Positions 43,252 through 56,060 are shown, counted from the first letter of the stretch. The stretch: 64,000 nt of DNA from Solirubrobacterales bacterium (GCA_040879985.1 JBBDJH010000004.1:14115-78114), one strand, 5' to 3'. Program-made: numbers and translations. Notes: a model not told the origin generated them from the letters alone.

Positions 43252-43551
43252 CTACTCCGCTTTGGCGGGAGCTTTCGAGTCGCTTGGCTTCGAATCCGAG
43301 CTCTTTGAGTCAGAGCTCTTCGAGTCAGAGGAGTCCTTTGAGCCCTCTGAAGAGCTTCCGTTGCTCCCGGTCTTCTTCTTCGCGTAGTCGGTGTTGTGGA
43401 AGCCGCTGCCCTTGAAGTGGATCGCCACCGGGTGGAGGACACGCTCGGCCGGGGCGCCGCACTCCTGGCACTCGGTGAGCGGCTCGTCGGCCATCCGCTG
43501 GATCACGTCGAAGACGTGCCCCTTGGCGCACTTGTACTCGTAGATCGGCAT
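43252..43551 (-). CDS. FmdB-family zinc-ribbon protein with Ser/Asp/Lys repeat tail
   Basis: Trimmed to MPIYEYKCAKGHVF..CQECGAP (CxxH..CxxC zinc ribbon). The tail is SSDSKSSDSKSSDSKPSDSK. Confidence 0.85.
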   Translation of the reverse strand: MPIYEYKCAKGHVFDVIQRMADEPLTECQECGAPAERVLHPVAIHFKGSGFHNTDYAKKKTGSNGSSSEGSKDSSDSKSSDSKSSDSKPSDSKAPAKAE

Positions 43552-43636
43552 GCGGCCGGGGATTATCGCAGTCGCCAAGCCAGGCGCCCGGCGACAGAGC
43601 GGCGGCGCTCCGGCTCCGCCCTATACGTTTCCTCCG

Positions 43637-45013
43637 ATGACCGCCCAGCCCGACCTGGCGACGATGGACGAGATCGTCGCCCTGTGCAAGCGGCGCGGCT
43701 TCGTCTTCCCCTCCTCGGAGATCTACGGCGGGCTCGGCTCGACCTACGACTACGGCCACTACGGGGTGCTGCTGAAGAACAACGTCAAGGCCGAGTGGTG
43801 GCGGGCGATGCTGCAGGAGCGTGACGACATCGTCGCGCTCGACTCGGCGATCCTGCAACACCCGCGGGTCTGGGAGGCCTCGGGCCACCTCGAGGGCTTC
43901 ACCGACCCGCTGGTCCAGTGCCTCGGCGAGTGCAAGCGGCGCTGGCGCGAGGACCATCTGCGCGAGGCGGTCGAGGCCGCGGGCGGCGACCCCGAGGCCG
44001 AGCTGCACTGCCCGGAGTGCGGCGGCGAGCTCTCGGAGCCGCGCCAGTTCAACCTGATGTTCGAGACCCACGTCGGCCCGGTCGCGGGCGAGGGCTCGGA
44101 GGTCTACCTGCGGCCGGAGACCGCGCAGGGCATCTTCATCAACTTCAAGAACGTGCTCGGCTTCGCCCGCAAGAAGCCGCCCTTCGGGATCGCCCAGATC
44201 GGCAAGTCGTTCCGCAACGAGATCACGCCGGGCAACTTCATCTTCCGCACGCGCGAGTTCGAGCAGATGGAGATGGAGTTCTTCGTCCCCCCCGCCGAGG
44301 CGGAAAAGTGGCACCAAGCCTGGATGGACGAGCGCGAGCGCTGGTACACGGAGCTCGGCATCCGCCCCGAGCTGCTGCGGGTCCGCGCCCACGGCGAGGA
44401 CGAGCTCTCGCACTACTCCTCGGCGACGAGCGACATCGAGTACCTCTTCCCGATCGGCTGGTCGGAGCTGGAGGGGATCGCCAACCGCGGCGACTTCGAC
44501 CTCAAACAGCACGCCGAGTTCAGCGGCGAGAAGCTCGAGTACTTCGACCAGCAGACGAAGGAGCGCTACACGCCGCACGTGATCGAGCCGGCCGCCGGCG
44601 CCGACCGCGCCACGCTCGCCTTCCTGGTCGACGCCTACGACGTCGAGGAGGTCGAGGGTCGCCCGCGCACGGTGCTGCGCCTGCACCCCCGCCTCGCCCC
44701 GGTCAAGGTCGCCGTCCTGCCCCTGCTCTCCAAGCAGGGCATGCCGGAGAAGGCGCGGGCGATCTTCGAGGAGGTCCGCCGCCGCGTCCCCGCCGAGTAC
44801 GACGAAGGCGGCAACATCGGCAAGCGCTACCGCCGCCAGGACGAGATCGGCACCCCCTGGGGGATCACCGTCGACCACCAGACGATGGAGGACGACACCG
44901 TCACCCTGCGCGACCGCGACTCCCTCGAGCAGACCCGAGTCCCGATCGAGGGCCTCGCCGACGAGCTGGCCAACCGCCTGGCACAGCCCTGGCAGAGCCC
45001 GAAGCTGGGCTGA
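43637..45013 (+). CDS. glyQS: Glycyl-tRNA synthetase (homodimeric class II, GlyQS)
   Basis: Trimmed to MTAQPDLATMDEIVALCKRRGFVFPSSEIYGG... Class II motifs ..FRNEITPG.. and ..EPAAGADR.. Confidence 0.95.
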   Translation: MTAQPDLATMDEIVALCKRRGFVFPSSEIYGGLGSTYDYGHYGVLLKNNVKAEWWRAMLQERDDIVALDSAILQHPRVWEASGHLEGFTDPLVQCLGECKRRWREDHLREAVEAAGGDPEAELHCPECGGELSEPRQFNLMFETHVGPVAGEGSEVYLRPETAQGIFINFKNVLGFARKKPPFGIAQIGKSFRNEITPGNFIFRTREFEQMEMEFFVPPAEAEKWHQAWMDERERWYTELGIRPELLRVRAHGEDELSHYSSATSDIEYLFPIGWSELEGIANRGDFDLKQHAEFSGEKLEYFDQQTKERYTPHVIEPAAGADRATLAFLVDAYDVEEVEGRPRTVLRLHPRLAPVKVAVLPLLSKQGMPEKARAIFEEVRRRVPAEYDEGGNIGKRYRRQDEIGTPWGITVDHQTMEDDTVTLRDRDSLEQTRVPIEGLADELANRLAQPWQSPKLG

Positions 45014-45033
45014 CAGACAGGCTTCAGCGAACC

Positions 45034-45053
45034 GGCGGTTCCGCGGAACCGCC
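45034..45053 (+). terminator. Perfect 20-bp palindrome after glyQS (candidate terminator hairpin)
   Basis: GGCGGTTCCGCGGAACCGCC lies 21 nt after the glyQS stop and is followed by TTGGGG (weak U-tract). Confidence 0.45.
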
Positions 45054-45074
45054 TTGGGGAGGGCGCCTGGTTGC

Positions 45075-45121
45075 AAATCACTCAGTACATTGAGTAAAAT
45101 CACTCAGTGTCGTGAGTGATT
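45075..45121 (+). promoter_or_regulatory. AT-rich direct/inverted repeat cluster overlapping the start codon of the DUF4143 ATPase gene (candidate operator)
   Basis: The 12-nt direct repeat AAATCACTCAGT occurs at 45075 and 45097. The 9-bp-arm inverted repeat AATCACTCA-gtgtcg-TGAGTGATT (45098-45121) spans the GTG at 45112. Confidence 0.3.
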
Positions 45122-46287
45122 CGCAGACATACAGGCGACCGATCCTCGCCGTGCTCACCGCCCGGCTGGCGGAGGACGCCACGCGGATCCAGGTGGTGAG
45201 CGGGCCGCGGCAGGTCGGCAAGACGACCGTCGTGCGGCAGGCCCTGCGAATCGTGGACCAGCCGAGCCACTACGCCAGCGCTGACGATCCGGCCCTGCGC
45301 GACGCAGCCTGGCTCGAGGCGCAATGGGAAGAGGGGCGGCGGCTGGCGAGGGATCGACGCGGCGGCGCGATCCTTGCCGTCGACGAGATCCAGAAGGTCA
45401 CCGGCTGGGCCGAGACGGTCAAGCGCCTCTGGGACGAGGATCGCCGCGGCGAGCTTCCCCTCCGGGTCGTCCTGCTCGGCTCGGCGGCGCTGCTCGTCCA
45501 GCGCGGCCTCGGCGAGAGCCTGACCGGGCGCTTCGAGCTGATCCGGGCGCCGCACTGGTCCTTTGGCGAGATGCGCGACGCCTTCGGGCTGACTTTCGAC
45601 GAGTTCATCTACTTCGGTGGCTATCCGGGCTCGGCGGGATTGATCGAGGACGAGCCGCGCTGGGCTGCCTACGTGCTCGACTCGATCGTCGAGACGACGA
45701 TCTCCCGCGATCTGCTGCTGCTCACGCGGGTGGACAAGCCGGCGCTGCTGCGCAGCCTCTTCCGCCTCGTCTGCGACTACTCCGGTCAGATCGTCTCCTA
45801 CCAGAAGCTGACCGGCCAACTCCAGGACGCCGGAAACACCACCACCCTCGCCCACTATCTCGACCTCCTCGCGGCAGCCGGACTCGCCCTCGGGCTCGAG
45901 AAGTTCGCGTCCGGGAAGGTGCGGCAGCGGCGTTCGACGCCGAAGCTGATCGCGCTCGACACGGCGCTCGTCTCGGCTACCTCGGGCAGGACGTACGCCG
46001 AGGCCCGCGCCGATCGCGAGCACTGGGGACGTTTGGTCGAGACCGCCGTCGGCGCCCATCTCGTCGCGACTCGCGATCCCCGGGCCGAGATCCTCTACTG
46101 GCGCAACCGGGGCAAGGAGGTCGATTTCGTCGTCGAACGCGGCAAGCAGCTGACCACGATCGAGGTGAAGAGCGGCCGACACGGCGGCGGGCTGCCGGGC
46201 ATGGCAGCCTTCGAGGAGTCGTTCGGCCCCGCCCGCAAGCTCCTGGTCGGCGGCGACGGGACTCCGCTCGTGGAGTTCCTCACGTGA
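45112..46287 (+). CDS. AAA_14 P-loop ATPase fused to a DUF4143 (PD-(D/E)xK-like) domain
   Basis: Walker A SGPRQVGKTT, Walker B ILAVDEIQ, and a C-terminal nuclease-like motif GKEVDFVVERGKQLTTIEVKSG. Confidence 0.85.
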   Translation: MSDSQTYRRPILAVLTARLAEDATRIQVVSGPRQVGKTTVVRQALRIVDQPSHYASADDPALRDAAWLEAQWEEGRRLARDRRGGAILAVDEIQKVTGWAETVKRLWDEDRRGELPLRVVLLGSAALLVQRGLGESLTGRFELIRAPHWSFGEMRDAFGLTFDEFIYFGGYPGSAGLIEDEPRWAAYVLDSIVETTISRDLLLLTRVDKPALLRSLFRLVCDYSGQIVSYQKLTGQLQDAGNTTTLAHYLDLLAAAGLALGLEKFASGKVRQRRSTPKLIALDTALVSATSGRTYAEARADREHWGRLVETAVGAHLVATRDPRAEILYWRNRGKEVDFVVERGKQLTTIEVKSGRHGGGLPGMAAFEESFGPARKLLVGGDGTPLVEFLT

Positions 46288-46531
46288 AAGCCAGCCCGTT
46301 TCGGGATCGGGGACTTCCGTCTGGTCGCCAAGTCGGTGGAGGACCCTTTGCCGCTTACACGGAATCCGCAGCACCGCCGAGGAGGCGTCTTCGGCCCTGG
46401 CCGGGCTGGTCGGCGTGCTGGTGCTGCTGCGCATGTACCGCGGCTGGACCTGCCGAGCGGCTCGATCAGCGCGCCGATCAAACTCGATGGTGGTGCAGAG
46501 GAACCCGGGGCTGGTTCGGCCGAGAGTTGAC

Positions 46532-49500
46532 TCAGGTTAGCTCTGGCAGACGCGCCGAACGCCTGTCGTTGTCACCGGTCTTCGGGAGGGTCTTTATCCT
46601 CCGCGCAATCTCCCGATCAGACCAAGGCTCGCCAAAGTAGTACGCCACGGTCAAGGCCGCCCGAGCTCGATCAGCCCTCCGCTCGAGTTTTCGATCGAAG
46701 ATGTCGCTCTGATTTTCGAGAAACGAGCAGAGTTCGACGTCGGGCGCACCAAAGGGCGCCAGCGACCGTTCAACGGGGGAAAGACACGTGATTGCCCACG
46801 CAGCCTGCAACTGAGCCTGAGGGCACCAACTATGCCGCCAGAGCGCGAGGAGCGCCGGGAAGACCCTGAGTCGATCCTCGATATCGATCAAATCCAAGCG
46901 CCCGACCCAGGCCAAAGCCGACACCGCCGCGAATGCGACGTAAGGTCGGCCGATCTCGCATAGCTTCGTGAGCTGGCCAGCCCACATTCGCATCGGTTCG
47001 AGCATAGTCGGGACACCGACCCACCCCTCCTCCCAGAGCTGGCGCCCCCACACTGCTGCTTCCATCGCCGCCGCCGCCGCGGCGCCCTCATCGTCCGATT
47101 GGATCGCCTTGCCAATCAGTTGTGCCCGTGCGGCCTCCGGGAATGCGCTCGGCAGGCGGCTTTCGAGACAGCTCGCATAAACGTGCGCGAATTCCGCGAA
47201 GTGCGGTCTGGAATCGTCTCGGTAGCCAGCCTCCACCGTTGCCCTGAACGCATCGCCGTACCGACCCTCGAGAATCTCGACGACGAGCTCCTCGATTTCG
47301 GGATCGGGCTCGCCGGAAAGGCGACCGAAGGCAAAGGCGGCATCACTCACGTGCCCAGGAGGCATTTGGACCTCGTCCGCCAAGGCCCTGCCAAGAAGGC
47401 GCTTGGCGTGCGTAGGTGAGGACGGATCGAGCGCCTCCCTCCCTGAGCAGAGGATTGCGGCAATCACATCTCCGGCAGAGCGCCCAGCCAATACGTTCAC
47501 CAGGGTTAGGACTTCAAACCACTGCGGATCTGAAACGTGAGACGCTAGTCGACCCGCCAAGCGATCCCCGTCACGGTGACCACTGTAAAACCCCTCCACG
47601 AGGGCCAAGGCGGCTAGATACTCCTGAAACGTAAGGTGACGGAACTCGTAGACTGGGACCAGCCTGCCTCGTTCCTCGACATGCCCCGTCATGATCAGCA
47701 AGCTGCTCCTACCCTCGATTCGCTCTACAAACTTCACCACCGACGTCCGTGCGAATCCGAGCACCTCGGGCATCTGGCTGCGGGCCTCATTCAACAAGTC
47801 AGTTAGTTCGACCGCGCTGACGCTCTGGACGCCTCGCTCGGTGAGCGAATGAGCGACAAATGCCAGCTGTGGAATCGCCTCGTCTTGGGCTATTGGCTCA
47901 TAAGCTGCAACATTCCACGTCATCAGCAGCACCTCGATGGCCTTCTCGTACAGGACCGTACGCTTACGGGGAAGATCGCCAACCCATCTCTTCACTAGCA
48001 ACAGGGTGGTCAGCAATAGGGGGTTCCTTGCCAGACGCCTGACCCTGTCCGTGGCCACAATCGTCTGGGCCAGCTCCTCCGCTTCTCCGGCAACTTTCGG
48101 CGAACGCCCAACAACCGTCGCATGCCATGCCTTCGTAAGCTGGTGAATGTCTGTGTCTACAAACTCGGCCAACCTATACCACGTGCAGATCGACGACAAG
48201 GCACCGGCCACGCTACGGAATCCTGGCTCCCTAGAAGTGACTAGCAACCCGACGTTTGGATACACCGACAGAAACGTCCTCATCTTCCGAACGAACGCCA
48301 GCCGATTTCCGGCATCGGAGACCTCGTCCAACCCATCTATCAACAACAGGATCTGTCCGCTCTGGAGAGCGTTGGCGATTAGTTCCGCGAAGCTTTCCGC
48401 CAACTCTGGGAACTCCCCCCTTCGTGGCGTGTCGTCAAGGATTTCGCGAAAAGACATCTCACGCTGATCGGTACCCAGATCGCGGCAGCGAATCAACAGT
48501 GGTAGCCAGCCTCGATCAGGCAACTCATCGTTGACACGATCTCGATGCGACTCGTCGACGTATGCAACTGCCAGTCGCTTGATCAAGGTCGACTTTCCTG
48601 AGCCCGGCGCACCGAGCACCGCCAAGCGGCGCGAGTGAGTCAGCACCCACCCGATCGACTCGGGCTCCCCCGCTCCCTCCTCCCGGCCGTCCCACCCGGC
48701 GGTCTCCCGCCGACCCCCGAAGGTTGCACCGCTCCCCTCCTCCAGCCGTTCCACCCTAAGGGGCACATATAGATCTTCCAGGGCTATTCGCTTCACACCG
48801 GCATCCTCGTCAGCCGGCAAGCCCTCCAGCGTGATGTCTCCAAGCTCAGCCATGAGATAGTCGCGATATCGCCTCTCAGCCACCCTGGTCGAATCGCGAT
48901 GTTTCGTCTCCTTGGGCGCTAGATAGCCCAGATCGCCCAGCGTCGCCCCAGTCACACCGTCCGAATATGCAGAGAACCGCTCCGCTATGCCCGGTGAGAG
49001 TGGTTGCCCGTCTGCATGAACAAGCGAAAAATAGGTTGGAGCGTGATCACGCTCCAGGACGGACAGCCAAATCCATCCCAGCGCATGGCCAACAAGCTCA
49101 GGCGGCCTGACAACAAGCGTGTCCAACTTCGATTCGGCCATCAGGCCGCCCACGATCTCGCCCACCCTTTGCGGTGACACCACAGTCAATCCAGCAACGA
49201 GTTGATGCTGGGCGTCGAGGCCGTCGAGGCAGACAAAGCGAGGGCTGCTGAACCCTGCCTCCTGCTCCATGGCGGCTTCGGTAAAGCCACTCAGCGAGAT
49301 GAAGTAGCCCTGGACGGCATCCTCGCCTTTCGCACTTTCCTCTGCCTGAAGCACCCCCGCAAACTTGTTCAGATCCGCACCACCAATCGGATTCTTCGTC
49401 GCCTTACACTCGGCGATTGCATATTTTGGCTCGACTCGATGCCGAGCAACAACATCTACCTCTCTTCCCGCTTTCTGGATGTTGAGTCGTGGGTCCTCGT

Positions 49501-49582
49501 ACCCCAAGGCCAAGAACACGTCGGCCACGAGCCGGGAGAACAGGCTGCCTTTGATGTTGCTCTCACGGGCCAGAAGTCGCAT
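46532..49582 (-). CDS. STAND NTPase: N-terminal Mrr-like PD-(D/E)xK nuclease domain + NACHT + C-terminal alpha-helical repeat region
   Basis: Trimmed to MRLLARESN.. (the upstream 47 codons overlap the AlkZ-like gene end). Nuclease motif GREVDVVA..AIAECKAT. NACHT motifs: Walker A GAPGSGKST, Walker B LLLIDGLDEV, LVTSREPGF, NPLLLTTLL, FRHLTFQEYLAA. Confidence 0.85.
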   Translation of the reverse strand: MRLLARESNIKGSLFSRLVADVFLALGYEDPRLNIQKAGREVDVVARHRVEPKYAIAECKATKNPIGGADLNKFAGVLQAEESAKGEDAVQGYFISLSGFTEAAMEQEAGFSSPRFVCLDGLDAQHQLVAGLTVVSPQRVGEIVGGLMAESKLDTLVVRPPELVGHALGWIWLSVLERDHAPTYFSLVHADGQPLSPGIAERFSAYSDGVTGATLGDLGYLAPKETKHRDSTRVAERRYRDYLMAELGDITLEGLPADEDAGVKRIALEDLYVPLRVERLEEGSGATFGGRRETAGWDGREEGAGEPESIGWVLTHSRRLAVLGAPGSGKSTLIKRLAVAYVDESHRDRVNDELPDRGWLPLLIRCRDLGTDQREMSFREILDDTPRRGEFPELAESFAELIANALQSGQILLLIDGLDEVSDAGNRLAFVRKMRTFLSVYPNVGLLVTSREPGFRSVAGALSSICTWYRLAEFVDTDIHQLTKAWHATVVGRSPKVAGEAEELAQTIVATDRVRRLARNPLLLTTLLLVKRWVGDLPRKRTVLYEKAIEVLLMTWNVAAYEPIAQDEAIPQLAFVAHSLTERGVQSVSAVELTDLLNEARSQMPEVLGFARTSVVKFVERIEGRSSLLIMTGHVEERGRLVPVYEFRHLTFQEYLAALALVEGFYSGHRDGDRLAGRLASHVSDPQWFEVLTLVNVLAGRSAGDVIAAILCSGREALDPSSPTHAKRLLGRALADEVQMPPGHVSDAAFAFGRLSGEPDPEIEELVVEILEGRYGDAFRATVEAGYRDDSRPHFAEFAHVYASCLESRLPSAFPEAARAQLIGKAIQSDDEGAAAAAAMEAAVWGRQLWEEGWVGVPTMLEPMRMWAGQLTKLCEIGRPYVAFAAVSALAWVGRLDLIDIEDRLRVFPALLALWRHSWCPQAQLQAAWAITCLSPVERSLAPFGAPDVELCSFLENQSDIFDRKLERRADRARAALTVAYYFGEPWSDREIARRIKTLPKTGDNDRRSARLPELT

Positions 49583-49605
49583 AGACGGAACAATATTGCG
49601 ATTAG

Positions 49606-50634
49606 TTAGGGAGCGGTCAGGAAGCGGGCGATGTCGGCGGCGTCGACCTCCAGTGCGGCCGCGACCGCGGCGGGCAGGCGCTCGAGCGGCTGCAGGTTCA
49701 CCTTGCCGGCTGGGAAGCCCCACCTGGCGACGGCGCGTCCGCCCGCCATCGCGAACGGGTGGAAGATTCCGTTGCGGGTGACCAGGCTCGTGTGGCGCCC
49801 GATCACGTCTTCGCGCGAGGTCCAGCCGAGTAGGACCGGGTCAAAGGCGCCGAGCAGCCGCGGGGGTGGGATATCCCCGTCTGCGGGACGCTTCTTCAGC
49901 CGCACCAGCCCGCCCTCCCCCTCCTCCAGCTCGGCGGCAATCGCCGCCAGCCCGGCGCGCGCGTCGCGCAACGGCAGGCCGGCCCACCTGGCGAGATCGC
50001 GGTCGGTCGCCGGTTGGTGACCGACCAGGTAGCGACGCGCCAGCTCGGCCAGCGCGACATCCCGCTCGATCGCCGCTGCCTCGCCGAGCCACTCGCGCGT
50101 CAACACGTAGGCGTGCTGCTTGCCGATCATCGGGCCGCGCACGACGAGCCCGCGCACCGCGGCGAGAAAGAGCAGGTGGATCAGCGCCTGGCCCTCGGTC
50201 GGCACGCCGGCGGAGTCGAGTCGCTCGCGCAGCTGCTGCCGCGGCAGCGGCCCGTCGTCGGCGAGGGCCCGCTCGATCGTCTTCAGGGCCAGCTCCGCCA
50301 CCGCCTCGCCTACCCCCTCCTGGCGTAGGCGCCGCTTGCAGGAGGTGAACAACGGCGGCGCGGTCAGCGCCTGCAGCAGCGGGTAGTCCTCGCTGCGCAC
50401 AAGGTGCAGCGTGCCCCGGTTGAGCCAGGTGACGACCAACTCCCGTCCTGCCAGCGCCCGCTCGACATCAGCCGCGCTCAAGCCCTCGGTCCGAGCGCGG
50501 ACCGCGAGCCGGAACCCGCGCGGGTCCTGCCCCTGCACAGCGAGCAGGCGCTCGGCGACAGCGACGGCGTCAGGCAGCGGCGGGCCAGAGAGACCCTGCG
50601 CCGTGAGGCGCTCGGCGAGGATGGAGTCTGGCAT
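49606..50634 (-). CDS. Winged-helix DNA glycosylase-like protein (AlkZ/YcaQ, DUF1006 family)
   Basis: MPDSILAERLTAQGLSG..VAERLLAVQGQDPRG..LVVTWLNRGTLHLV matches the family N-terminus, including a Q-x-Q motif (QGQ). Confidence 0.7.
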   Translation of the reverse strand: MPDSILAERLTAQGLSGPPLPDAVAVAERLLAVQGQDPRGFRLAVRARTEGLSAADVERALAGRELVVTWLNRGTLHLVRSEDYPLLQALTAPPLFTSCKRRLRQEGVGEAVAELALKTIERALADDGPLPRQQLRERLDSAGVPTEGQALIHLLFLAAVRGLVVRGPMIGKQHAYVLTREWLGEAAAIERDVALAELARRYLVGHQPATDRDLARWAGLPLRDARAGLAAIAAELEEGEGGLVRLKKRPADGDIPPPRLLGAFDPVLLGWTSREDVIGRHTSLVTRNGIFHPFAMAGGRAVARWGFPAGKVNLQPLERLPAAVAAALEVDAADIARFLTAP

Positions 50635-50742
50635 CGACCGGAATCATCCCGATCGGTGACCGACAGGGTGCTATGGGTAACTGACATGCAACGTCGGTGA
50701 CATCGGATGTCGGTTATGTGGGATGTCGGTAAGCTCTTGGGC

Positions 50743-52110
50743 ATGTTCGTCAACCGCCGTGAAGAGCTGGGGGCGTTGAACGCCTGGTGGGACCGGGCGG
50801 GCGCCGCGCTGGGGCTGGTCTGGGGACGGCGCCGGGTTGGCAAGACCTCGCTGCTAGAGGAGTTTGCCCGCGACAAGCGCGCGATCTTCCACACCGGCGC
50901 CGGCCGGCCGGCCGGCGACGAGCTGCGGATGCTCAGCGAGAGCGCCGGGCAGGTTGCCAAGTTCGGGGCGCGCGATCTCGGCGAGCGACCCTTCGCCGAT
51001 TGGGACGACGCCCTCGACGCGCTCGCGGCGGCGGCCACCCGCGAGCGGCTGTTGCTCGTGATCGACGAGTTCCCCGACTTGGCCGCCGGCAGCCCCGAGC
51101 TGCCGGGCGTGCTGCGCGCCTTCTGGGATCGCGCTCAGGGCAAGACCAAGCTGCGCATCCTCGTCTGCGGCTCCGCCGTGCGCACAATGGAGGCCCTGCA
51201 GGAGGAGCGGGCGCCCCTCTATGGGCGCTTCGACCTCAGCCTGCTCCTGCACCCGTTCCGACCGCACGAGGCGAGCGCGATGCTGAAGGGCCTCGATCCC
51301 GCCGACAAAGCGCTCGTCTGGGGCCTCGTCGGCGGCGTGCCGCTCTACCTGAACTGGTGGGACAGCGAGCGCAGCGTGAAGCAAAACCTGCTGCGGCTGG
51401 CCTGCACCCCGGGTGGCCGACTGCTCGACGAGGGCAGGCTCGTGCTCGCGACCGAAGGCGACCTCGGCGGCCTCGGTGGGCTGGCCCTGCGGGCGATCGC
51501 CTCCGGCCGCACCCGGCACAACGAGATCGAGCAGGCGATCGGGTCGGATCCCAGCCGCGTGCTCGAGCGCCTGGTCGAGCTGCGCCTGGTCGAGCGGCTT
51601 GTCCCGGTCACCGAGAACCCGGCCAGAACGCGTCGTCGCATCTACCGGATCGCGGACAATTTCCTCGCCTTCTGGCTCGGGGTCCTCGATCGCCATCGTT
51701 CCGCGATCAGCCGAGGCCTGGGTGGACAGATTCTCTCGGTCCTGACCGAGCAGCTGGACGACCACATGGGCGACCGCTGGGAGGCAGCCTTCCGGCAGCA
51801 CCTGCTGCGGCTGGCGGCGGGCGGTGAGCTCGGCGAGCGGATCGTCGACATCGGCCGCTGGTGGCAGGACGCCCCGCCGGTCGAGATCGATGCGGTGGCG
51901 CTTGCCGGGCGCAGCAGGGAGGCCGTGCTTCTCGGCGAGGCGAAGTGGGCACGCAGGGCGGATGGCACGGCGCTCAGAGCCGGGCTGGAAGCCAAGGCGA
52001 CGGCGTTGCCGGCCCTGGCCGACGATGTCTCCTACGCGATCGCGGCTCGCGACCAGGTCAAGGGTGGCGACGGCGTGCTGCCGATCACCGCCGCCGACAT
52101 CTTCGGCTGA
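50743..52110 (+). CDS. Archaeal-type P-loop ATPase fused to a DUF234 (PD-(D/E)xK-like) domain
   Basis: Start moved to MFVNRREEL (the typical family N-terminus). Walker A GRRRVGKTS, Walker B LLVIDEFP, and C-terminal EIDAVALAG..VLLGEAKWA. Confidence 0.8.
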   Translation: MFVNRREELGALNAWWDRAGAALGLVWGRRRVGKTSLLEEFARDKRAIFHTGAGRPAGDELRMLSESAGQVAKFGARDLGERPFADWDDALDALAAAATRERLLLVIDEFPDLAAGSPELPGVLRAFWDRAQGKTKLRILVCGSAVRTMEALQEERAPLYGRFDLSLLLHPFRPHEASAMLKGLDPADKALVWGLVGGVPLYLNWWDSERSVKQNLLRLACTPGGRLLDEGRLVLATEGDLGGLGGLALRAIASGRTRHNEIEQAIGSDPSRVLERLVELRLVERLVPVTENPARTRRRIYRIADNFLAFWLGVLDRHRSAISRGLGGQILSVLTEQLDDHMGDRWEAAFRQHLLRLAAGGELGERIVDIGRWWQDAPPVEIDAVALAGRSREAVLLGEAKWARRADGTALRAGLEAKATALPALADDVSYAIAARDQVKGGDGVLPITAADIFG

Positions 52111-52113
52111 GCG

Positions 52114-52629
52114 CTAGCCGACTTTGACCAGGTCGACGACGAAGATCAGCGTTTCGTTCGGGCCGATCGCCGGTGGGGCGCCCGCTTCGCCGTAGGCGAG
52201 TTCGGGCGGGATGATCAGCTCGCGCTGGCCGCCGACCTTCATCCCGGCCACGCCCTGGTCCCAGCCGGGAATCACTTCGCCGGCGCCGAGCGTGAAGCTG
52301 AACGGTTCGTTGCGGCTCCAGGACGAGTCGAACTCTTCGCCGCTTTCGTAGCCGACCCCGACGTACTGGACGCTGACTTTGTCGCCGGATTTGGCTTCCG
52401 CCCCGGTGCCTTCGATCAGCTCTTTCTCTTCGAGCTGCTGCGGCGGTTCGCCGTCCGGCACCTCGACCGCCGGTTTGCCGCGGTTCGAGGCGTCGCCGCT
52501 CGTTTCCGCCGCGGCCGAGCCGGACGGCTGGTTCGAATCGGCCGCCTCGGTCGTGGTGTCGTCGTCGCCACCGCAGCCGGCGATGGCGAGGGCGGCGCAG
52601 GCAAGGATCGTCAATATCGCGGTCTTCAT
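52114..52629 (-). CDS. FKBP-type peptidyl-prolyl isomerase lipoprotein
   Basis: Lipobox LAIAGCGG. FKBP core GDKVSVQYVGV..FDSS..PFSFTLGAGEVIPGWDQGVAGMKVGGQRELIIPPELAYG. Confidence 0.9.
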   Translation of the reverse strand: MKTAILTILACAALAIAGCGGDDDTTTEAADSNQPSGSAAAETSGDASNRGKPAVEVPDGEPPQQLEEKELIEGTGAEAKSGDKVSVQYVGVGYESGEEFDSSWSRNEPFSFTLGAGEVIPGWDQGVAGMKVGGQRELIIPPELAYGEAGAPPAIGPNETLIFVVDLVKVG

Positions 52630-52690
52630 CGTGCGCGCAGCTTAAGCAATCGTTCGCTCAACCTGCGTGCCGCCGGGATAGGGTCAGCCG

Positions 52691-53587
52691 ATGGACAGCC
52701 CGCTGCTGACCTCCCTCGTCCTGCCCGCGGCGATCGCGGTGATCATGTGCAGCCTCGGAATGACGCTGACGACGGCCGACTTCCGGCGCATCTTCGTCGC
52801 CCCGCGCGGCATCGCGATCGGGATGCTGAACCTGGCGCTGATCTCGCCGCTGCTCGCCCTGGCGATGGCCGAGCTGTTCAACCTGCCGCCGGAGCTGGCC
52901 GTCGGGCTCGTCCTGCTCGGCGCCTCGCCCGGCGGAATGATGGCCAACATGCTGACCCACCTCTCGCGTGGGGACACCGCCCTCTCGGTCTCGATGACGG
53001 CGATCAGCAGCGTCGGCGCGATCGTCACCGTGCCCCTCTTCCTCGCCCTCGCCTCAGCTCACTTCGGCGCCGAGGACCTCGGCGAGGCGAGCATGCTCGG
53101 CGTCGTCGCCCGCGTCTTCGCGATCACGATCGTCCCGGTCGCGATCGGGATGAGCCTGCGCCGGCGCTATCCGGAGACGATCGAAGCGATCTACCCGCGC
53201 GTGCGTGACGTCTCCCTAATTCTGTTCGGCCTGGTCATCCTCGGCGCGATCGCCAGCGAGCACGACACGGTCGCCGAGAACGCGCTCGCCGTCGGCGGCG
53301 CCGCGCTTGCCCTCAACGTCGCCGCGATGACGGTCAGCTTCACGATCGCGAGACTGGCCCGCCTCAACGACCGTCAGGCGACCGCGATCTCGCTCGAGCT
53401 GGGCATCCACAACGCCGCCCTGGCGATCGCCGTCGGCGCCACGCTGTCGCCGGACCTGACGATCCCGGCCGCGGTCTACGCCTCCTTCATGCTGGTCACC
53501 GGCGGCAGCTTCGCCTGGGTGATGAGCAAGCGCAACACGGCGCCCGCGGGCGCCCCGGCGGCGACACCCGCGTTCGAGGCGGAGTGA
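52691..53587 (+). CDS. Bile acid:sodium symporter (BASS) family transporter
   Basis: ..GMTLTTADFRRIF..P..AIGMLNLALISPLLA..LGASPGGMMANMLTHLSRGDTALSVSMTA is typical of the SBF/BASS family. Confidence 0.85.
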   Translation: MDSPLLTSLVLPAAIAVIMCSLGMTLTTADFRRIFVAPRGIAIGMLNLALISPLLALAMAELFNLPPELAVGLVLLGASPGGMMANMLTHLSRGDTALSVSMTAISSVGAIVTVPLFLALASAHFGAEDLGEASMLGVVARVFAITIVPVAIGMSLRRRYPETIEAIYPRVRDVSLILFGLVILGAIASEHDTVAENALAVGGAALALNVAAMTVSFTIARLARLNDRQATAISLELGIHNAALAIAVGATLSPDLTIPAAVYASFMLVTGGSFAWVMSKRNTAPAGAPAATPAFEAE

Positions 53588-53609
53588 AGCGCTTAGACTT
53601 GGCCGCGGG

Positions 53610-55115
53610 ATGGGGATGAACCTGGCATCGATCGTCACCGCCGGCGCCGAGCGCTGGCCCGATGCGGCGGCGATCCGGCTCGGTGAGAGCGAGCTGACCT
53701 ACGCCGAGCTCGACGAGCGCAGCGCCCGCCTCGCCACGCTGCTGGCCGAGCAGGGCGTCGCAGCCGGCGACCGGGTCGGCGTGATGCTGCCCAACGTCCC
53801 CGATTTCCCGATCGCCTACTACGGCGTGCTGCGCGCCGGCGCCGTCGTCGTGCCGATGAACGTGCTGCTCAAGCGGCGCGAGATCGCCTTCTACCTGGAG
53901 GACTCGGGCGCCGGGCTGCTGCTCGCCTGGCACGGCTTCGCCGAGGAGGCGCGGGCGGGCGCGGACGAGGCCGGCGCCGAGCTGGTCGAGGTCGAGCCCG
54001 CTGCCTTCGCCGCGACGCTGAGCGAACGCGAGCCGACCGCCGGCCTGGCCGAGACCGGCGAGGACGACACCGCGGTCATCCTCTACACCTCGGGCACGAC
54101 CGGCAAGCCGAAGGGCGCCGAGCTGACCCACGCCAACCTCTGGCGCAACGCCGACGTCACCCGCCGCACGACCTGCGAGATCGAGGCCGGCGACGTCGTG
54201 CTCGGCTCCCTGCCGCTCTTCCACTCATTCGGCCAGACGGTCGCGATGAACGCCTCGCTCGCGGCCGGCGCCTGCCTCACCCTGGTGCCCAAATTCGAGC
54301 CCGGCGAGGCGCTGGCGACGATGCAGCGCGACCGCGTCAGCCACTTCTACGGCGTGCCGACGATGTTCGGCGCGCTGCTCCACCACCCCGAGCGCGAGAG
54401 CTTCGATACCTCGGCGCTGCGCACCTGCATCACCGGCGGCGCCTCGATGCCGGTCGAAGTCCTGCGCGGCTTCGAAGACGCCTTCGGCGCCGTCGTGCTC
54501 GAGGGCTACGGGCTCTCGGAGACCTCCCCGGTCGCCTGCTCCAACCACCCGGAGAAGGGAGCCAAGCCGGGCTCGATCGGCGCCCCGATCGAAGGCGTCG
54601 AGATGAAGGTCGTCGACGAGGACGACGCGGAGGTCGCGCAGGGCGAGGTCGGCGAGATCGTGATCCGCGGCCACAACATCATGAAGGGCTACTGGCGGCG
54701 CCCGGACGCGACCGCGGAGGCGATGCGCGGCGGCTGGTTCCACAGCGGCGACATGGCGCGCGTCGACGAGGACGGCGACTTCTTCATCGTCGACCGCAAG
54801 AAGGACCTGATCATCCGCGGCGGCTACAACGTCTACCCGCGCGAGGTCGAGGAAGTCCTCTACGAGCACCCGAAGATCCGCGAAGCGGCCGTGGTCGGCG
54901 TCCCCCACGACGAGTGGGGCGAGGAGATCGGCGCCGCCGTCGTCCTCATCGAGGGCGAGCAGCTGAGCCCGGAGGAGGTCAGCGCCTACGTCAAGGACCG
55001 CATCGCCGCCTACAAGTACCCGCGCCTCGTCTGGTTCCTCGACGACCTCCCCAAGGGCCCGACCGGCAAGATCCTCAAGCGGGAGATCGAGACTCCCGCC
55101 GCTGTCAACGACTAA
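53610..55115 (+). CDS. AMP-dependent acyl-CoA synthetase/ligase
   Basis: AMP-binding motif ILYTSGTTGKPKGAEL, then GYGLSET, and C-terminal PKGPTGKILKRE. Confidence 0.9.
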   Translation: MGMNLASIVTAGAERWPDAAAIRLGESELTYAELDERSARLATLLAEQGVAAGDRVGVMLPNVPDFPIAYYGVLRAGAVVVPMNVLLKRREIAFYLEDSGAGLLLAWHGFAEEARAGADEAGAELVEVEPAAFAATLSEREPTAGLAETGEDDTAVILYTSGTTGKPKGAELTHANLWRNADVTRRTTCEIEAGDVVLGSLPLFHSFGQTVAMNASLAAGACLTLVPKFEPGEALATMQRDRVSHFYGVPTMFGALLHHPERESFDTSALRTCITGGASMPVEVLRGFEDAFGAVVLEGYGLSETSPVACSNHPEKGAKPGSIGAPIEGVEMKVVDEDDAEVAQGEVGEIVIRGHNIMKGYWRRPDATAEAMRGGWFHSGDMARVDEDGDFFIVDRKKDLIIRGGYNVYPREVEEVLYEHPKIREAAVVGVPHDEWGEEIGAAVVLIEGEQLSPEEVSAYVKDRIAAYKYPRLVWFLDDLPKGPTGKILKREIETPAAVND

Positions 55116-55196
55116 ACCCCGGCCGCATGCAAGCAGAGGCGAACCGGGGCCTTCCTGGCCAACTGTAGCAACCCTGTCCGGCCGATTTGCGATGAA

Positions 55197-55867
55197 ATGA
55201 GTCGTATGCGCCCCGAGCAGGCAAGGAAATGGATCAGCGAACCCCGCTTCAACGGATATCGCAAGGCGGTCGCCGATCAGAGTCACGAGTCGGCGGTGGC
55301 CCTGTATCTATGGAACGCGGAAGTTTCGCGGCCTACCTCGGAGTCCTTCACCACGTCGAGGTATTGCTCCGCAACGCCATCGACCAGCAGTTTCCCGCCA
55401 CAGACGCCGATCACGTCGCTTCGATCTGCGACACGGACGTCTGGCTGACGGATCCGGCATTCCTCGAGGATCAAGGCCGAGAAAAGGTCAACGACGCGAT
55501 CAGGCGACTGGTCGGCGAAAACCGAAGGCCGACGCGGGGTCGTCTGGTTGCCTCGCTGACACTGGGCTTTTGGACGGCTCTCTTCTCGGGGCGCTACGAG
55601 GACCTCTGGCGGTCGCATCTCGTCCAGGCATTCCCGAACGGCGGCGGACGGCGCAGTGAGGTCAGGGGAGCCCTAGCCCGCATTCTCCAGCTGAGAAACC
55701 AGATCGCCCACCACGAAGCGATTTTCGCCCGTGACCTCGCCAAGGATCATGCGCATTTACTGAGCGTCGCCGGTTTGATCGACCCCGAGGCGCAGCGGTA
55801 TATCGCGAAGCATTCAAGGGTGGTGGCACTGTTTCCCCGTAGACCTGACCTTTTGCTTGACCGGTAA
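55197..55867 (+). pseudogene. Abi_2 (AbiD/AbiF-like) abortive-infection family gene interrupted by a -1 frameshift near 55328
   Basis: Frame a (55197-) reads ..KWISEPRFNGYRKAV..AVALYLWNAEVS. Frame b (55229-55867) continues AAYLGVLHHVEVLLRNAID..LTLGFWTALF..ILQLRNQIAHHEAIF. Joined, they give a full-length Abi_2 pattern. Confidence 0.65.
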
Positions 55868-56060
55868 CGGCTCCCAGTCGTCCCCAAAATGGCGAAAAAC
55901 CCTCCAGTCCTCGAAGGGCGGCGGCGGAATAGTGCAAAGAAAATCATGCGTGTGAGGCACATCACATAGCGGATAGCTGGCTGGCTGGCCAGGATCGCGG
56001 TAACCTCTGCATCGAAAGCCGTCGTGAAGCGCCCCGCGGGCGCGCAGCCAAAGGAGAGAG

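What the first reader, a model, noticed from the sequence alone, without database searches (positions are those of the whole stretch)
45075..52110. Island of three P-loop NTPase + PD-(D/E)xK-like fusion genes between glyQS and the FKBP gene
Within 7 kb, three unrelated NTPase families each carry a restriction-endonuclease-fold-like module.
- AAA_14 + DUF4143, with EVDFVV..IEVKSG.
- Mrr + NACHT, with EVDVVA..AECKAT.
- Archaeal-type ATPase + DUF234, with EIDAVA..GEAKWA.

They surround an AlkZ-like DNA glycosylase gene. The segment is bounded by a tRNA-synthetase gene with a terminator hairpin on the left and by a housekeeping FKBP gene on the right. This clustering of ATPase-nuclease fusions is the organisation expected of a defence island. 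The DUF4143 and DUF234 ATPases have no established function, so co-localisation with an NLR-like gene is a useful guilt-by-association lead.
Basis: partly seen in the sequence, partly recalled or inferred. Interest (0 to 1): 0.65.

Follow-up and report, generated by a model that had tools for sequence, protein, structure and literature searches.

The report
Variable defence-gene slot after glyQS
In a soil actinobacterium (Solirubrobacterales), the stretch between the glycyl-tRNA synthetase gene and an FKBP gene is a slot whose content differs between close relatives; here it holds an NLR-like nuclease and two ATPase-nuclease genes that are already catalogued as candidate anti-phage genes, so it is a clear example of a known kind.

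Summary
Three intact P-loop NTPase genes with PD-(D/E)xK modules lie at 45112-46287(+), 46532-49582(-) and 50743-52110(+), around an AlkZ-like glycosylase gene. The quoted motifs are present and conserved.

The "defence island" reading is partly right. Fourteen configurations of the glyQS-FKBP interval in related Solirubrobacterales show a variable slot. The three genes come and go independently there. A complete Kiwa system, a PemK toxin-antitoxin pair and other genes also occupy it.

Four corrections apply:
- AlkZ is backbone, not cargo.
- There is no integrase, tRNA gene or flanking repeat.
- Only the Mrr-NACHT gene looks foreign (GC3 0.68 against about 0.95; dS saturated against its same-slot homologue).
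- The DUF4143 and DUF234 ATPases are under strong purifying selection (dN/dS 0.09-0.17). Both have ORC/clamp-loader-like AAA+ modules, so the three families are not all unrelated.

The guilt-by-association lead is not new. The two ATPases match PADLOC's candidates PDC-S01 (E=1.7e-162) and PDC-S27, still unvalidated; one published test did not list either among the protective systems. Mrr-NACHT has the architecture of the validated bNACHT25/32.

Also seen: gene-specific palindromic operators on leaderless promoters of both ATPases, and a frameshifted Abi_2 gene in a second insertion at 55106-55976.

The parts
43550..45013 (+). glyQS (glycyl-tRNA synthetase), the conserved left flank of the slot. 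The true start is probably the Met at 43637.
   Evidence: tRNA-synt_2b plus HGTP_anticodon. 80-93% aa identity in relatives.
45034..45053 (+). GC-rich hairpin (GGCGGTTCC-gc-GGAACCGCC) with no T-tract. It precedes the G1 promoter even in relatives where the upstream gene is not glyQS.
   Evidence: Read from the sequence. Conserved in L081, L084 and L090. Not called by the terminator scan.
45071..45121 (+). G1 promoter TTGCAA-18-TAAAAT, overlapped by two copies of the palindrome AAATCACTCA-N6-TGAGT, 22 bp apart. The second copy covers the GTG start, so the mRNA is near-leaderless.
   Evidence: It is the only sigma-70-like site in 44900-52800. The motif gives 4 strand-matches against 0.32 expected. 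In 1.59 Mb of loci it occurs only upstream of G1 orthologues. Conserved in L081-L085 and L090.
45112..46287 (+). G1: AAA+ ATPase (AAA_14) plus DUF4143 (predicted wHTH plus PD-(D/E)xK). It matches PADLOC candidate PDC-S01.
   Evidence: Pfam. PDLC04791 E=1.7e-162. D338/E351/K353 conserved. The AF2 C-terminus has alpha-beta-beta-beta-alpha-beta order at pLDDT 58-79. The AAA+ part matches RFC/ORC/RuvB. dN/dS 0.15-0.17.
46281..50679 (.). 4,399-bp block (Mrr-NACHT plus AlkZ) that is present here but absent from L081 and L090, where G1 and G4 (or its remnant) are adjacent.
   Evidence: blastn junctions are identical against L081 and L090. The block is collinear with L086 at 70.7% nt identity.
46532..49582 (-). 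G2: NLR-like STAND protein. It has an N-terminal Mrr-type PD-(D/E)xK nuclease, a central NACHT module and a variable C-terminal region of about 450 aa that is the presumed sensor.
   Evidence: Pfam. Catalytic and Walker residues are invariant in 120 homologues, and the C-terminal 256 aa are the most divergent part. It has the lowest GC in the window (0.60; GC3 0.68). Homologues at 68% and 53% identity occupy the same slot in L086 and L088, and another lies in a mobile element in L087.
49606..50634 (-). G3: AlkZ-like (HTH_42) DNA glycosylase. It belongs to the conserved backbone, not the cargo.
   Evidence: PF06224 E=6e-55. Syntenic next to FKBP in L001, L002, L004, L084, L086, L088, L091 and L092; in L007 and L008 it directly follows glyQS and FKBP is absent.
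50690..50742 (+). G4 promoter/operator. It has clustered GATGTCGGT / ACCGACATC half-sites and a -10-like TAAGCT (50730-50735) 7 nt before ATG 50743, so the mRNA is leaderless.
   Evidence: Read from the sequence. Clusters of two or more half-sites occur upstream of G4 or its remnant in the window, L081-L083, L090 and L092; L002 has one exact half-site there plus variant copies. L092 has a perfect palindrome of four half-sites.
50743..52110 (+). G4: AAA+ ATPase (ATPase_2) plus DUF234 (PD-(D/E)xK). It matches PADLOC candidate PDC-S27.
   Evidence: Pfam. PDLC04984 E=1.1e-31. D383/E399/K401 conserved. The AF2 C-terminal module has pLDDT 83-96 and alpha-beta-beta-beta-alpha-beta order. The AAA+ part matches 2qen, ORC/Cdc6 and TnsC. 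dN/dS 0.09-0.14.
52114..52629 (-). FKBP-type peptidyl-prolyl isomerase gene, the right flank of the slot.
   Evidence: FKBP_C E=5e-34. Present in most relatives, duplicated in L091 and reduced to a fragment in L090.
55106..55976 (+). A second, smaller variable insertion of about 870 bp (GC 0.62). It carries an Abi_2 (HEPN) abortive-infection-type gene that appears frameshifted near 55325-55335.
   Evidence: Absent from L081, L084, L001 and L090. The joined conceptual protein hits Abi_2 at E=8e-6, 26.7 bits, above the gathering score of 25.6. The 212-aa ORF alone gave no Pfam hit.

Best explanation
The glyQS-FKBP interval of this Solirubrobacterales chromosome is a recombination-prone slot for accessory genes. 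No dedicated mobility machinery is present. In this genome the slot holds three independent single-gene NTPase-nuclease cassettes, inserted around a resident AlkZ-type DNA glycosylase gene.

**G2** is an NLR-like STAND immune receptor of the bNACHT25/32 type.
- Shown: an intact Mrr-type catalytic site, intact NACHT Walker motifs, a hypervariable C-terminus and foreign composition. Deeply diverged alleles occupy the same slot in relatives.
- Inferred by analogy: the C-terminal region senses a phage-derived cue, the NACHT module oligomerises with ATP, and the nuclease domains then degrade DNA. This stops the infection, at the cost of the cell if necessary.

**G1 (PDC-S01) and G4 (PDC-S27)** are AAA+ (ORC/clamp-loader-like) - predicted wHTH - PD-(D/E)xK proteins.
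- Shown: conserved catalytic residues, strong purifying selection, presence/absence polymorphism and residence next to Kiwa, PemK and Mrr-NACHT. Each has its own near-leaderless promoter covered by gene-specific palindromes that travel with the gene.
- Inferred: each represses its own promoter through its DNA-binding domain. On some trigger it acts as an ATP-dependent DNA nuclease against invading DNA, in the general manner of an AAA+ motor coupled to a PD-(D/E)xK nuclease.

The three cassettes most likely act independently, not as one system, because each occurs without the others in relatives.
For: **Domains and motifs**
- Pfam domain calls for all three genes.
- Conserved catalytic residues.

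**PADLOC candidate models**
- G1 matches PDC-S01 at E=1.7e-162. G4 matches PDC-S27 at E=1.1e-31.

**Variable slot, 14 configurations**
- G1 alone (L081, L085).
- G1 plus G4 plus PemK toxin-antitoxin (L090).
- KwaB plus G1 (L084).
- KwaA/KwaB plus G4 (L002; PADLOC KwaA 5.5e-21, KwaB 8.9e-22).
- NACHT alone (L086, L088).
- G4 alone (L091, L092).
- None of the three (L001, L004, L007, L008).
- Identical indel junctions at 46280|50680 against L081 and L090.

**G2**
- GC3 0.68 against about 0.95 in flanking genes. dS is saturated (3.4) against L086, where the flank dS is 0.30.
- A 60% homologue lies among a resolvase, an IS66 transposase and a relaxase.
- The same NACHT module is fused to SIR2 on an Agrobacterium plasmid.
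- bNACHT25/32 have a PD-(D/E)xK effector that is required for defence and degrades DNA (PMC12169576).

**G1 and G4**
- dN/dS 0.09-0.17.
- Promoters and operators are gene-specific.
- Relatives are widespread on plasmids: 201 records for G1 and 151 for G4. They are nearly absent from phage records.
- A Thermus AAA_14+DUF4143 gene next to a CRISPR array is induced 6.6-fold when plasmid DNA is present (PMC4406477).
- Literature classifies DUF234 and DUF4143 as PD-(D/E)xK families (PMC3424549). It describes PDC-S01 and PDC-S27 as ATPase-PD-(D/E)xK defence candidates (PMC12988326).
Against: - No anti-phage activity has been shown for PDC-S01 or PDC-S27. One representative of each was tested in E. 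coli B against T4, T5 and T7. Neither was among the four candidates that protected.
- G1 and G4 are unusually conserved for immune genes. Their top 120 database clusters are 79-94% and 68-98% identical. dN/dS is lower than in the neighbouring housekeeping genes.
- In this clade they were found only in this slot. That pattern also fits vertical inheritance with loss.
- No integrase, tRNA gene or flanking repeats are present.
- In the only unbiased sample (loci retrieved through glyQS with the backbone intact), just 1 of 5 slots holds defence-type genes. The other informative loci were found by searching with G1, G2 or G4 themselves.
- In more distant relatives the space after glyQS holds ordinary genes.
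- The PD-(D/E)xK fold of the DUF4143 and DUF234 modules was not confirmed by a structure search here. Whole-chain Foldseek hits were dominated by the AAA+ domain. hhalign against the Mrr_cat profile was not significant.
- Autoregulation is pure inference.
Confidence: 0.6

Rival explanations
1. Only G2 is an immune gene. G1 and G4 are conserved genome-maintenance or DNA-damage-response ATPase-nucleases. They would belong functionally with the resident AlkZ glycosylase and the glyoxalase/VOC-type resistance gene seen in relatives. On this view the cluster is a genotoxin and DNA-damage locus that a defence gene happened to enter.
For: - AlkZ is the conserved core of the slot. In L001, L002, L088 and L092 it is paired with a glyoxalase/bleomycin-resistance-fold gene.
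- AlkZ-like genes are reported near VOC resistance genes and act against genotoxins (PMC9040887).
- G1 and G4 have dN/dS of 0.09-0.17, lower than the flanking housekeeping genes. Against the closest relatives their dS equals that of the flanks.
- Their AAA+ modules resemble ORC/Cdc6, clamp loaders, RuvB and DnaA.
- The one published phage test did not list PDC-S01 or PDC-S27 among the protective candidates.
Against: - G1 and G4 are absent from many close relatives that keep AlkZ (L001, L004, L007, L008, L086, L088). A core repair function is therefore unlikely.
- They occur with AlkZ absent (L081, L085, L090).
- In relatives they sit directly next to Kiwa and PemK.
- The families are widespread on plasmids across phyla and in archaea.
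- They were picked up embedded inside BREX, DISARM and type I restriction-modification systems.
Confidence: 0.2
2. G1 and G4 are selfish or addiction-type cassettes. They could be remnants of mobile elements, such as a TniB/TnsC-like AAA+ fused to a TnsA-like PD-(D/E)xK nuclease. They would persist and move within the slot for their own benefit, and the palindromes would be recombination or recognition sites, not operators.
For: - G4 has a weak TniB hit (E=0.0044). Its model matches TnsC structures.
- The conserved unit is exactly 'palindromes plus gene' in four different contexts.
- G4 changes position relative to AlkZ between genomes.
- The palindrome cluster survives in the G4 deletion remnant of L081.
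Against: - There are no terminal inverted repeats or target-site duplications around the units.
- No transposase or integrase partner is present.
- There is one copy per locus and no paralogues in 1.59 Mb of related loci.
- The palindromes overlap the -35/-10 elements and the start codon, which is where operators are expected.
- Movement is confined to one chromosomal slot, which fits homologous recombination between conserved flanks.
Confidence: 0.07
3. The clustering has no functional meaning. Three common P-loop/PD-(D/E)xK families lie side by side by chance in a region of ordinary genome flux.
For: - PDC-S01 is reported as one of the most common 'defence' calls in prokaryotes, so chance adjacency is not rare.
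- PDC candidates associate less with other defence systems than candidates found by enrichment.
- Distant relatives have ordinary genes after glyQS.
Against: - All but one homologue context inspected for the three families (the exception is L087) lies in this one slot.
- The slot also recruits Kiwa and PemK. A second insertion 3 kb away carries Abi_2.
- No other copy of any of the three families exists in the 64-kb window.
Confidence: 0.1

Closest known systems
bNACHT25 / bNACHT32 (bacterial NLR-related proteins, clade 6 of Kibby et al.; PMC12169576)
   Same: Both have a tripartite architecture: an N-terminal Mrr-like PD-(D/E)xK DNase effector, a central NACHT NTPase and a C-terminal non-enzymatic region. 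Both are single-gene systems. The catalytic D/ExK and Walker motifs are intact in G2.
   Different: No sequence comparison with bNACHT25/32 was possible here, so clade membership is unknown. The C-terminal region of G2 has no Pfam match; some homologues show HEAT_2. The host is a high-GC soil actinobacterium. The trigger is unknown. PADLOC v2.0.0 models do not recognise G2, and the NCBIfam EruA hit is far below its cut-off (28 against 1000 bits).
PADLOC phage-defence candidate PDC-S01 (AAA_14 + DUF4143; COG1373)
   Same: G1 gives a full-length match to model PDLC04791 (E=1.7e-162) and has the same two-domain architecture.
   Different: PDC-S01 is only a candidate, found by 'guilt-by-embedding'. 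One representative tested was not among those reported to protect. The sub-family here is very conserved and tied to one locus in Solirubrobacterales.
PADLOC phage-defence candidate PDC-S27 (ATPase_2 + DUF234; COG1672; structures 2qen, 2fna)
   Same: G4 matches models PDLC04984 and PDLC04985 (E=1.1e-31 and 7.5e-23). It has the ATPase_2 plus DUF234 architecture. Its best structural match is 2qen.
   Different: The family is a candidate only. The match is weaker than G1's match to PDC-S01. The solved archaeal structures match the ATPase part, and their function is unknown.
Chromosomal defence hotspots / defence islands
   Same: Conserved flanks enclose swappable defence-type cargo, including a validated system type (Kiwa) in a relative. 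Deeply diverged alleles of the NLR-like gene occupy the same site.
   Different: No integrase, tRNA gene or repeats are present. Part of the content (AlkZ, glyoxalase, DUF4234, a BTAD regulator) is not defence-related. Two of the three 'defence' genes evolve slowly.
McrBC-type restriction (AAA+ motor plus PD-(D/E)xK nuclease): a mechanistic analogy only, from general knowledge
   Same: Both combine an AAA+ NTPase with a PD-(D/E)xK nuclease, which suggests NTP-dependent DNA cleavage.
   Different: G1 and G4 are single-chain fusions. Their AAA+ modules are ORC/clamp-loader-like, and they gave no hit to McrB or McrC models. Membership is not claimed.

Membership tests
bNACHT / NLR-related anti-phage STAND proteins with a nuclease effector | [quoted passage not shown] | tested here: met
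   PF05729 E=5.1e-12. P326, G327, G329, K330 and D416, G417, L418, D419, E420 are invariant in 120 homologues.
bNACHT / NLR-related anti-phage STAND proteins with a nuclease effector | N-terminal effector domain: Mrr-like PD-(D/E)xK nuclease with catalytic residues | tested here: met
   PF04471 E=8.4e-11. E41, D43, E58 and K60 are present in 119 of 120 homologues.
bNACHT / NLR-related anti-phage STAND proteins with a nuclease effector | C-terminal sensor region (NCH1 helical domain in clade 6) | tested here: inconclusive
   A C-terminal region of about 450 aa is present and is the most variable part (57% falling to 20% identity). It has no Pfam hit, and no NCH1 model was available.
bNACHT / NLR-related anti-phage STAND proteins with a nuclease effector | Phylogenetic placement within a validated bNACHT clade | not testable with these tools
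The papers read give no sequences.
bNACHT / NLR-related anti-phage STAND proteins with a nuclease effector | Protection against phage that depends on the nuclease and NTPase | not testable with these tools
   This needs an experiment.
PADLOC PDC-S01 | Match to a PDC-S01 profile over the full length | tested here: met
   PDLC04791 E=1.7e-162, residues 7-390 against profile positions 2-386 of 395.
PADLOC PDC-S01 | AAA_14 ATPase fused to DUF4143 with PD-(D/E)xK residues | tested here: met
   Pfam. D338, E351 and K353 are conserved. The AF2 model shows alpha-beta-beta-beta-alpha-beta order, at only moderate confidence.
PADLOC PDC-S01 | Anti-phage activity | not testable with these tools
   The literature has one heterologous test; the PDC-S01 representative was not among the four systems reported to protect.
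PADLOC PDC-S27 | Match to a PDC-S27 profile | tested here: met
   PDLC04984 E=1.1e-31 and PDLC04985 E=7.5e-23. PADLOC's own score thresholds were not available.
PADLOC PDC-S27 | ATPase_2 fused to DUF234 with PD-(D/E)xK residues | tested here: met
   Pfam. D383, E399 and K401 are conserved. The AF2 C-terminal module has pLDDT 83-96 and alpha-beta-beta-beta-alpha-beta order.
PD-(D/E)xK fold for the DUF4143 and DUF234 modules | Significant structural or profile similarity to a solved or accepted PD-(D/E)xK nuclease | tested here: inconclusive
   - Whole-chain Foldseek hits were all to AAA+ proteins.
- hhalign against the Mrr_cat profile gave E=0.12-0.32 with Neff of only 1.6-2, although the D and ExK motifs aligned in two of the three comparisons.
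- There are weak hits to CARF_PDDEXK (E=2e-4) and UPF0102 (E=0.087).
- The literature lists both families as PD-(D/E)xK.
Defence island / hotspot | Variable gene content between conserved flanks in related genomes | tested here: met
   14 configurations. Indel junctions are defined.
Defence island / hotspot | Experimentally validated defence system types occupy the same site | tested here: met
   KwaA plus KwaB in L002 and KwaB in L084. A PemK toxin-antitoxin pair in L090.
Defence island / hotspot | Mobility signatures (integrase, tRNA target, flanking repeats) | tested here: not met
   No tRNA gene in the window. No flanking repeats. No recombinase among the genes annotated in 43550-57347.
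Defence island / hotspot | Statistical enrichment of defence genes relative to the genome background | not tested
   This needs whole genomes. In the unbiased sample retrieved through glyQS, only 1 of 5 intact slots has defence-type genes.
AlkZ/YcaQ (HTH_42) DNA glycosylases | HTH_42/AlkZ-like domain over the full length | tested here: met
   PF06224 E=6.1e-55, residues 28-338 against profile positions 2-329 of 329.
AlkZ/YcaQ (HTH_42) DNA glycosylases | Catalytic motif: Q-phi-D (YcaQ-like) or (Q/H)-phi-Q (AlkZ-like) | tested here: inconclusive
   The sequence has Q34-G-Q36-D37. This was read by eye against the motif definitions in PMC9040887, not aligned to AlkZ or YcaQ.

The most novel reading that the evidence does not exclude
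PDC-S01 and PDC-S27 would be self-contained, autorepressed modules. Each would be a leaderless gene preceded by its own palindromic operator, recognised by the protein's own DNA-binding domain. The glyQS-FKBP slot of Solirubrobacterales would be a natural allelic series in which these modules, an NLR-like nuclease, Kiwa and a toxin-antitoxin pair are exchanged by homologous recombination. That would give the first regulatory and population-genetic handle on two of the commonest but still uncharacterised defence candidates. It might instead show that they are something other than anti-phage genes.
Probability: 0.25. Interest if true: 0.5.

Novelty: new member of a known kind. Interest (0 to 1): 0.3.

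Why it matters
[quoted passage not shown] This locus adds no new family. It does give a clean natural experiment: one chromosomal slot in which the two candidates, a bNACHT-type NLR, Kiwa and a toxin-antitoxin pair are independently present or absent among close relatives.

It also yields two testable observations. Both candidates carry gene-specific palindromic operators on leaderless promoters. Both are under unusually strong purifying selection for supposed immune genes. These observations could guide the first mechanistic experiments, or cast doubt on the anti-phage label.

Tried and rejected
- **Wrong ORFs for G1.** The ORFs at 45100-46434(-) and 45324-46640(+) gave no Pfam hits. The real gene is 45112-46287(+).
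- **Sequence search of the PDB.** Nothing useful came back for G1 or G2. G4 gave only a marginal 2fna hit.
- **Whole-chain Foldseek.** Hits for the G1 and G4 models were dominated by AAA+ proteins, so the nuclease fold was not tested.
- **hhalign of the nuclease modules.** Comparisons against the G2 Mrr_cat profile and against each other were not significant because the alignments are too shallow (Neff 1.6-2).
- **Pfam scan of the isolated nuclease fragments.** It returned only DUF4143 or DUF234 plus a weak UPF0102 hit.
- **Mobile-element reading of the island.** Rejected: there is no tRNA gene, integrase or flanking repeat.
- **AlkZ as island cargo.** Rejected on synteny.
- **Viral collections.** There are no close relatives in IMG/VR. 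The phage database holds only 7 weak records each for G1 and G4 and none for G2.
- **Literature search for 'DUF234'.** It returned mostly type VI secretion papers about DUF2345, because terms match at the start of a word.
- **Distant relatives.** The gaps after glyQS in L012, L033 and L042 hold ordinary genes, so the hotspot is confined to one sub-clade.
- The single search of protein representatives and the metagenome scan were not run. They would not have changed the verdict.

Full report
**1. What is there**

The window is high-GC DNA (about 0.70). By glyQS similarity it comes from a Solirubrobacterales (Thermoleophilia) bacterium; the best matches are soil MAGs at 79-91% aa identity.

Gene calls, supported by third-position GC and Pfam:
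- A Zn_ribbon_8 gene, 43252-43578(-).
- glyQS, 43550-45013(+). The real start is probably the Met at 43637.
- G1, 45112-46287(+), 391 aa: AAA_14 plus DUF4143.
- G2, 46532-49582(-), 1016 aa: Mrr_cat plus NACHT. The longer mechanical ORF to 49723 is not used. The database holds exactly the 1016-aa product, P0121.
- G3, 49606-50634(-), 342 aa: AlkZ-like.
- G4, 50743-52110(+), 455 aa: ATPase_2 plus DUF234. The ORF begins at 50707, but most homologues are called at 455 aa, which points to ATG 50743.
- FKBP, 52114-52629(-).
- An SBF transporter gene, an AMP-binding enzyme gene, an RNR-small-like gene and an amidase gene.

The D and ExK residues are conserved in homologue alignments.

One correction: the three NTPases are not all unrelated. 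G1 and G4 cross-hit each other's Pfam and PADLOC models. Both predicted structures match ORC/Cdc6, clamp loaders, RuvB/DnaA and TnsC, and G4's best hit is the archaeal Walker ATPase 2qen. NACHT is a STAND NTPase.

**2. Is it an island?**

I compared the interval in relatives in two ways:
- Loci retrieved through glyQS, mapped by tblastn.
- Loci retrieved through the closest database homologues of G1, G2 and G4.

The backbone in the sub-clade is glyQS | ... | AlkZ(-) | FKBP(-) | AMP-binding | RNR-small | amidase. Between glyQS and FKBP the content is:

| Genome | Content of the slot |
|---|---|
| window | G1 - NACHT - AlkZ - G4 |
| L081, L082, L083 | G1 - (G4 remnant) |
| L090 | PemK toxin plus small ORF - G1 - G4 |
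| L084 | KwaB-like - G1 - AlkZ |
| L085 | G1 - DUF4234 |
| L086 | NACHT - AlkZ |
| L088, L089 | NACHT - glyoxalase - AlkZ |
| L091 | second FKBP - AlkZ - G4 |
| L092 | G4 - glyoxalase - AlkZ |
| L002 | KwaA - KwaB - 149-aa ORF - G4 - glyoxalase - AlkZ |
| L001 | DUF4234 - glyoxalase - AlkZ |
| L004 | unknown - BTAD regulator - DUF4234 - AlkZ |
| L007, L008 | AlkZ only |
| more distant genomes | glyQS directly followed by RNR-small, or ordinary genes (MMPL, FUSC, LtrA, xanthine dehydrogenase, RTX) |

KwaA and KwaB in L002 match PADLOC Kiwa models at E=5.5e-21 and 8.9e-22.

So the slot is truly variable, and each of the three NTPase-nuclease genes occurs without the others. AlkZ, by contrast, is backbone.

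blastn gives identical junctions against L081 and L090. The window carries an extra 4,399-bp block (46281-50679: NACHT plus AlkZ) between G1 and G4. L081 has an internal G4 deletion that leaves the first ~130 bp and the operator region.

There is no tRNA gene, no flanking repeat and no recombinase among the annotated genes. Exchange by homologous recombination between the conserved flanks is therefore the likeliest route (inference).

A caveat on sampling: most informative loci were found by searching with the cargo genes. In the unbiased sample retrieved through glyQS, only 1 of 5 intact slots (L002) carries defence-type genes.

**3. The three genes behave differently**

*G2*
- It is the lowest-GC stretch of the whole window (0.60; GC3 0.68 against 0.95-0.96 for glyQS, SBF and AMP-binding).
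- Its nearest database relatives are only 68%, 61%, 60% and 59% identical. Identity then falls to 40-53% over the full length, and the relatives include an Acidobacteriota and an archaeal protein.
- The 68% and 53% homologues sit in the same slot in L086 and L088, where glyQS is 92% and 84% identical.
- Against L086, dS is saturated (3.4, where the flank is 0.30) and dN is 0.24. These are deeply diverged alleles or independent acquisitions at one site.
- A 60% homologue lies among a serine recombinase, an IS66 transposase and a relaxase.
- The same NACHT module is fused to SIR2 on an Agrobacterium plasmid.
- The catalytic and Walker residues are invariant. The last 256 residues are the most divergent part, falling from 57% to 20% identity. 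That is the pattern expected of a sensor domain.

*G1 and G4*
- Their top 120 database clusters are 79-94% and 68-98% identical.
- Their amino-acid identity tracks the flanks: G1 is 94/89/83% in L081/L084/L085, and glyQS is 93% and 90% in L081 and L085.
- dN/dS is 0.09-0.17, lower than the neighbouring housekeeping genes at 0.19-0.38.
- Against the closest relatives their dS equals that of the flanks. Against L085 and L091 it is 2-3 times higher (0.64-0.68 against 0.23-0.29), as it is for AlkZ. This suggests that slot alleles are exchanged between lineages, or that their synonymous sites are less constrained.
- More distant relatives (31-55% identity) occur on 201 and 151 plasmid records across phyla and in haloarchaea. 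They are almost absent from phage records.

**4. Regulation (new here)**

The only sigma-70-like promoter in 44900-52800 is TTGCAA-18-TAAAAT at 45071-45100.
- Two copies of AAATCACTCA-N6-TGAGT, 22 bp apart, overlap it. The second copy covers the GTG start, so the transcript is near-leaderless.
- In 1.59 Mb of related loci the motif occurs only upstream of G1 orthologues. A diverged but still palindromic version is present in L085.

G4 has a -10-like TAAGCT 7 nt before its ATG.
- Upstream lie clustered GATGTCGGT / ACCGACATC half-sites. L092 has a perfect four-half-site palindrome.
- The cluster accompanies G4 in different neighbourhoods and survives in the L081 remnant; in L002 only one half-site is exact and the others are variants.

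No separate regulator gene travels with either gene, and the DUF4143 and DUF234 proteins are predicted to contain DNA-binding helical regions. Autorepression is therefore the simplest reading. It is an inference and was not tested.

**5. Comparison with what is known**

- DUF234 and DUF4143 are already listed as PD-(D/E)xK families (PMC3424549).
- G1 matches PADLOC candidate PDC-S01 (E=1.7e-162). G4 matches PDC-S27 (E=1.1e-31).
- These candidates were defined because members are embedded in BREX, DISARM and type I restriction-modification systems (bioRxiv 10.1101/2024.01.29.577857).
- One representative of each was tested in E. coli B against T4, T5 and T7. Neither was among the four candidates that protected (bioRxiv 10.1101/2024.09.26.614923).
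- A Thermus AAA_14+DUF4143 gene near a CRISPR array was induced by plasmid DNA (PMC4406477).
- G2 has the architecture of bNACHT25/32, whose PD-(D/E)xK effector is required for defence and degrades DNA on activation. Clade membership could not be tested.
- AlkZ-like glycosylases protect against genotoxins and are reported near VOC/glyoxalase resistance genes (PMC9040887). That matches the AlkZ-glyoxalase pair seen in several relatives and feeds the main rival explanation.

**6. Fold check**

- The AF2 model of G4 is confident in the C-terminal module (pLDDT 83-96). It has the alpha-beta-beta-beta-alpha-beta order, with D383 on the second strand and E399-x-K401 on the third.
- The G1 model has the same order at lower confidence (pLDDT 58-79).
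- Whole-chain Foldseek hits were all to AAA+ proteins. Profile-profile comparison was not significant.
- The fold assignment therefore rests on motif conservation, topology, weak profile hits and the literature. It has not been confirmed by a structure match.

**7. Verdict**

This is a real, variable accessory-gene slot. It holds one credible NLR-type immune gene and two already-catalogued but unvalidated defence candidates, around a resident DNA-repair gene.
The proposed lead is already known.
- Novelty: a new member of a known kind.
- Interest is modest. The operators, the selection pattern and the natural allelic series are the useful additions.

Noticed in passing
window 55106-55976: An insertion of about 870 bp with low GC (0.62) lies between the AMP-binding and RNR-small genes and is absent from L081, L084, L001 and L090. 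It carries an Abi_2 (HEPN, RNxIAHH) abortive-infection-type gene. The gene needs a frameshift near 55325-55335 to read through. The joined protein hits Abi_2 at E=8e-6, just above the gathering score.
   Followed up: partly
window 45071-45121; L081-L085 and L090 upstream of the G1 orthologues: Tandem palindromes AAATCACTCA-N6-TGAGT overlap the G1 promoter and start codon. The motif occurs only upstream of G1 orthologues in 1.59 Mb of loci. It is probably an operator on a near-leaderless gene.
   Followed up: partly
window 50690-50742; L090 8484-8546; L092 7974-8024; L081 9217-9267: Clusters of GATGTCGGT / ACCGACATC half-sites lie upstream of G4. L092 has a perfect four-half-site palindrome. 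The cluster is retained in L081, where most of G4 is deleted.
   Followed up: partly
L002 11413-12857: A complete Kiwa system (KwaA 176 aa, KwaB 314 aa) sits directly after glyQS. It lies two genes upstream of the G4 orthologue.
   Followed up: yes
L084 6759-7713: KwaB is split into two ORFs (226 aa and 80 aa). glyQS and several downstream genes in this long-read contig are fragmented in the same way. This is either assembly indel error or real decay.
   Followed up: no
L090 6286-6863: A PemK-family toxin gene plus an upstream 86-aa ORF (a presumed antitoxin with no family hit) is inserted between glyQS and the G1 orthologue. FKBP is reduced to a 93-aa fragment, and the AMP-binding gene is missing.
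   Followed up: partly
L091 6267-9832: Two FKBP genes flank AlkZ-G4 (glyQS | FKBP' | AlkZ | G4 | FKBP). This may be a footprint of the recombination that moves slot content.
   Followed up: no
L087 1-18880: A 60% homologue of G2 lies among a serine recombinase, an IS66 transposase, a Replic_Relax relaxase and XRE-type regulators, so it sits on a mobile element. The gene call there lacks the Mrr part, although the open frame extends about 70 codons further upstream.
   Followed up: partly
window G1, G3 and G4 compared with L085 and L091: Synonymous divergence of the slot genes (0.54-0.68) is 2-3 times that of the flanking genes (0.23-0.29). Against L081 and L090 it equals the flanks. This fits either exchange of slot alleles between lineages or weaker codon constraint.
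   Followed up: partly
L080 456-1736: A G1-like gene (50% identity) lies about 8 kb upstream of glyQS in an Acidimicrobiales genome. This is probably coincidence.
   Followed up: no
window 43252-43637: The Zn_ribbon_8 gene (minus strand) overlaps the long mechanical glyQS ORF. Homologues are called at 462-463 aa, so glyQS probably starts at the Met at 43637.
   Followed up: partly
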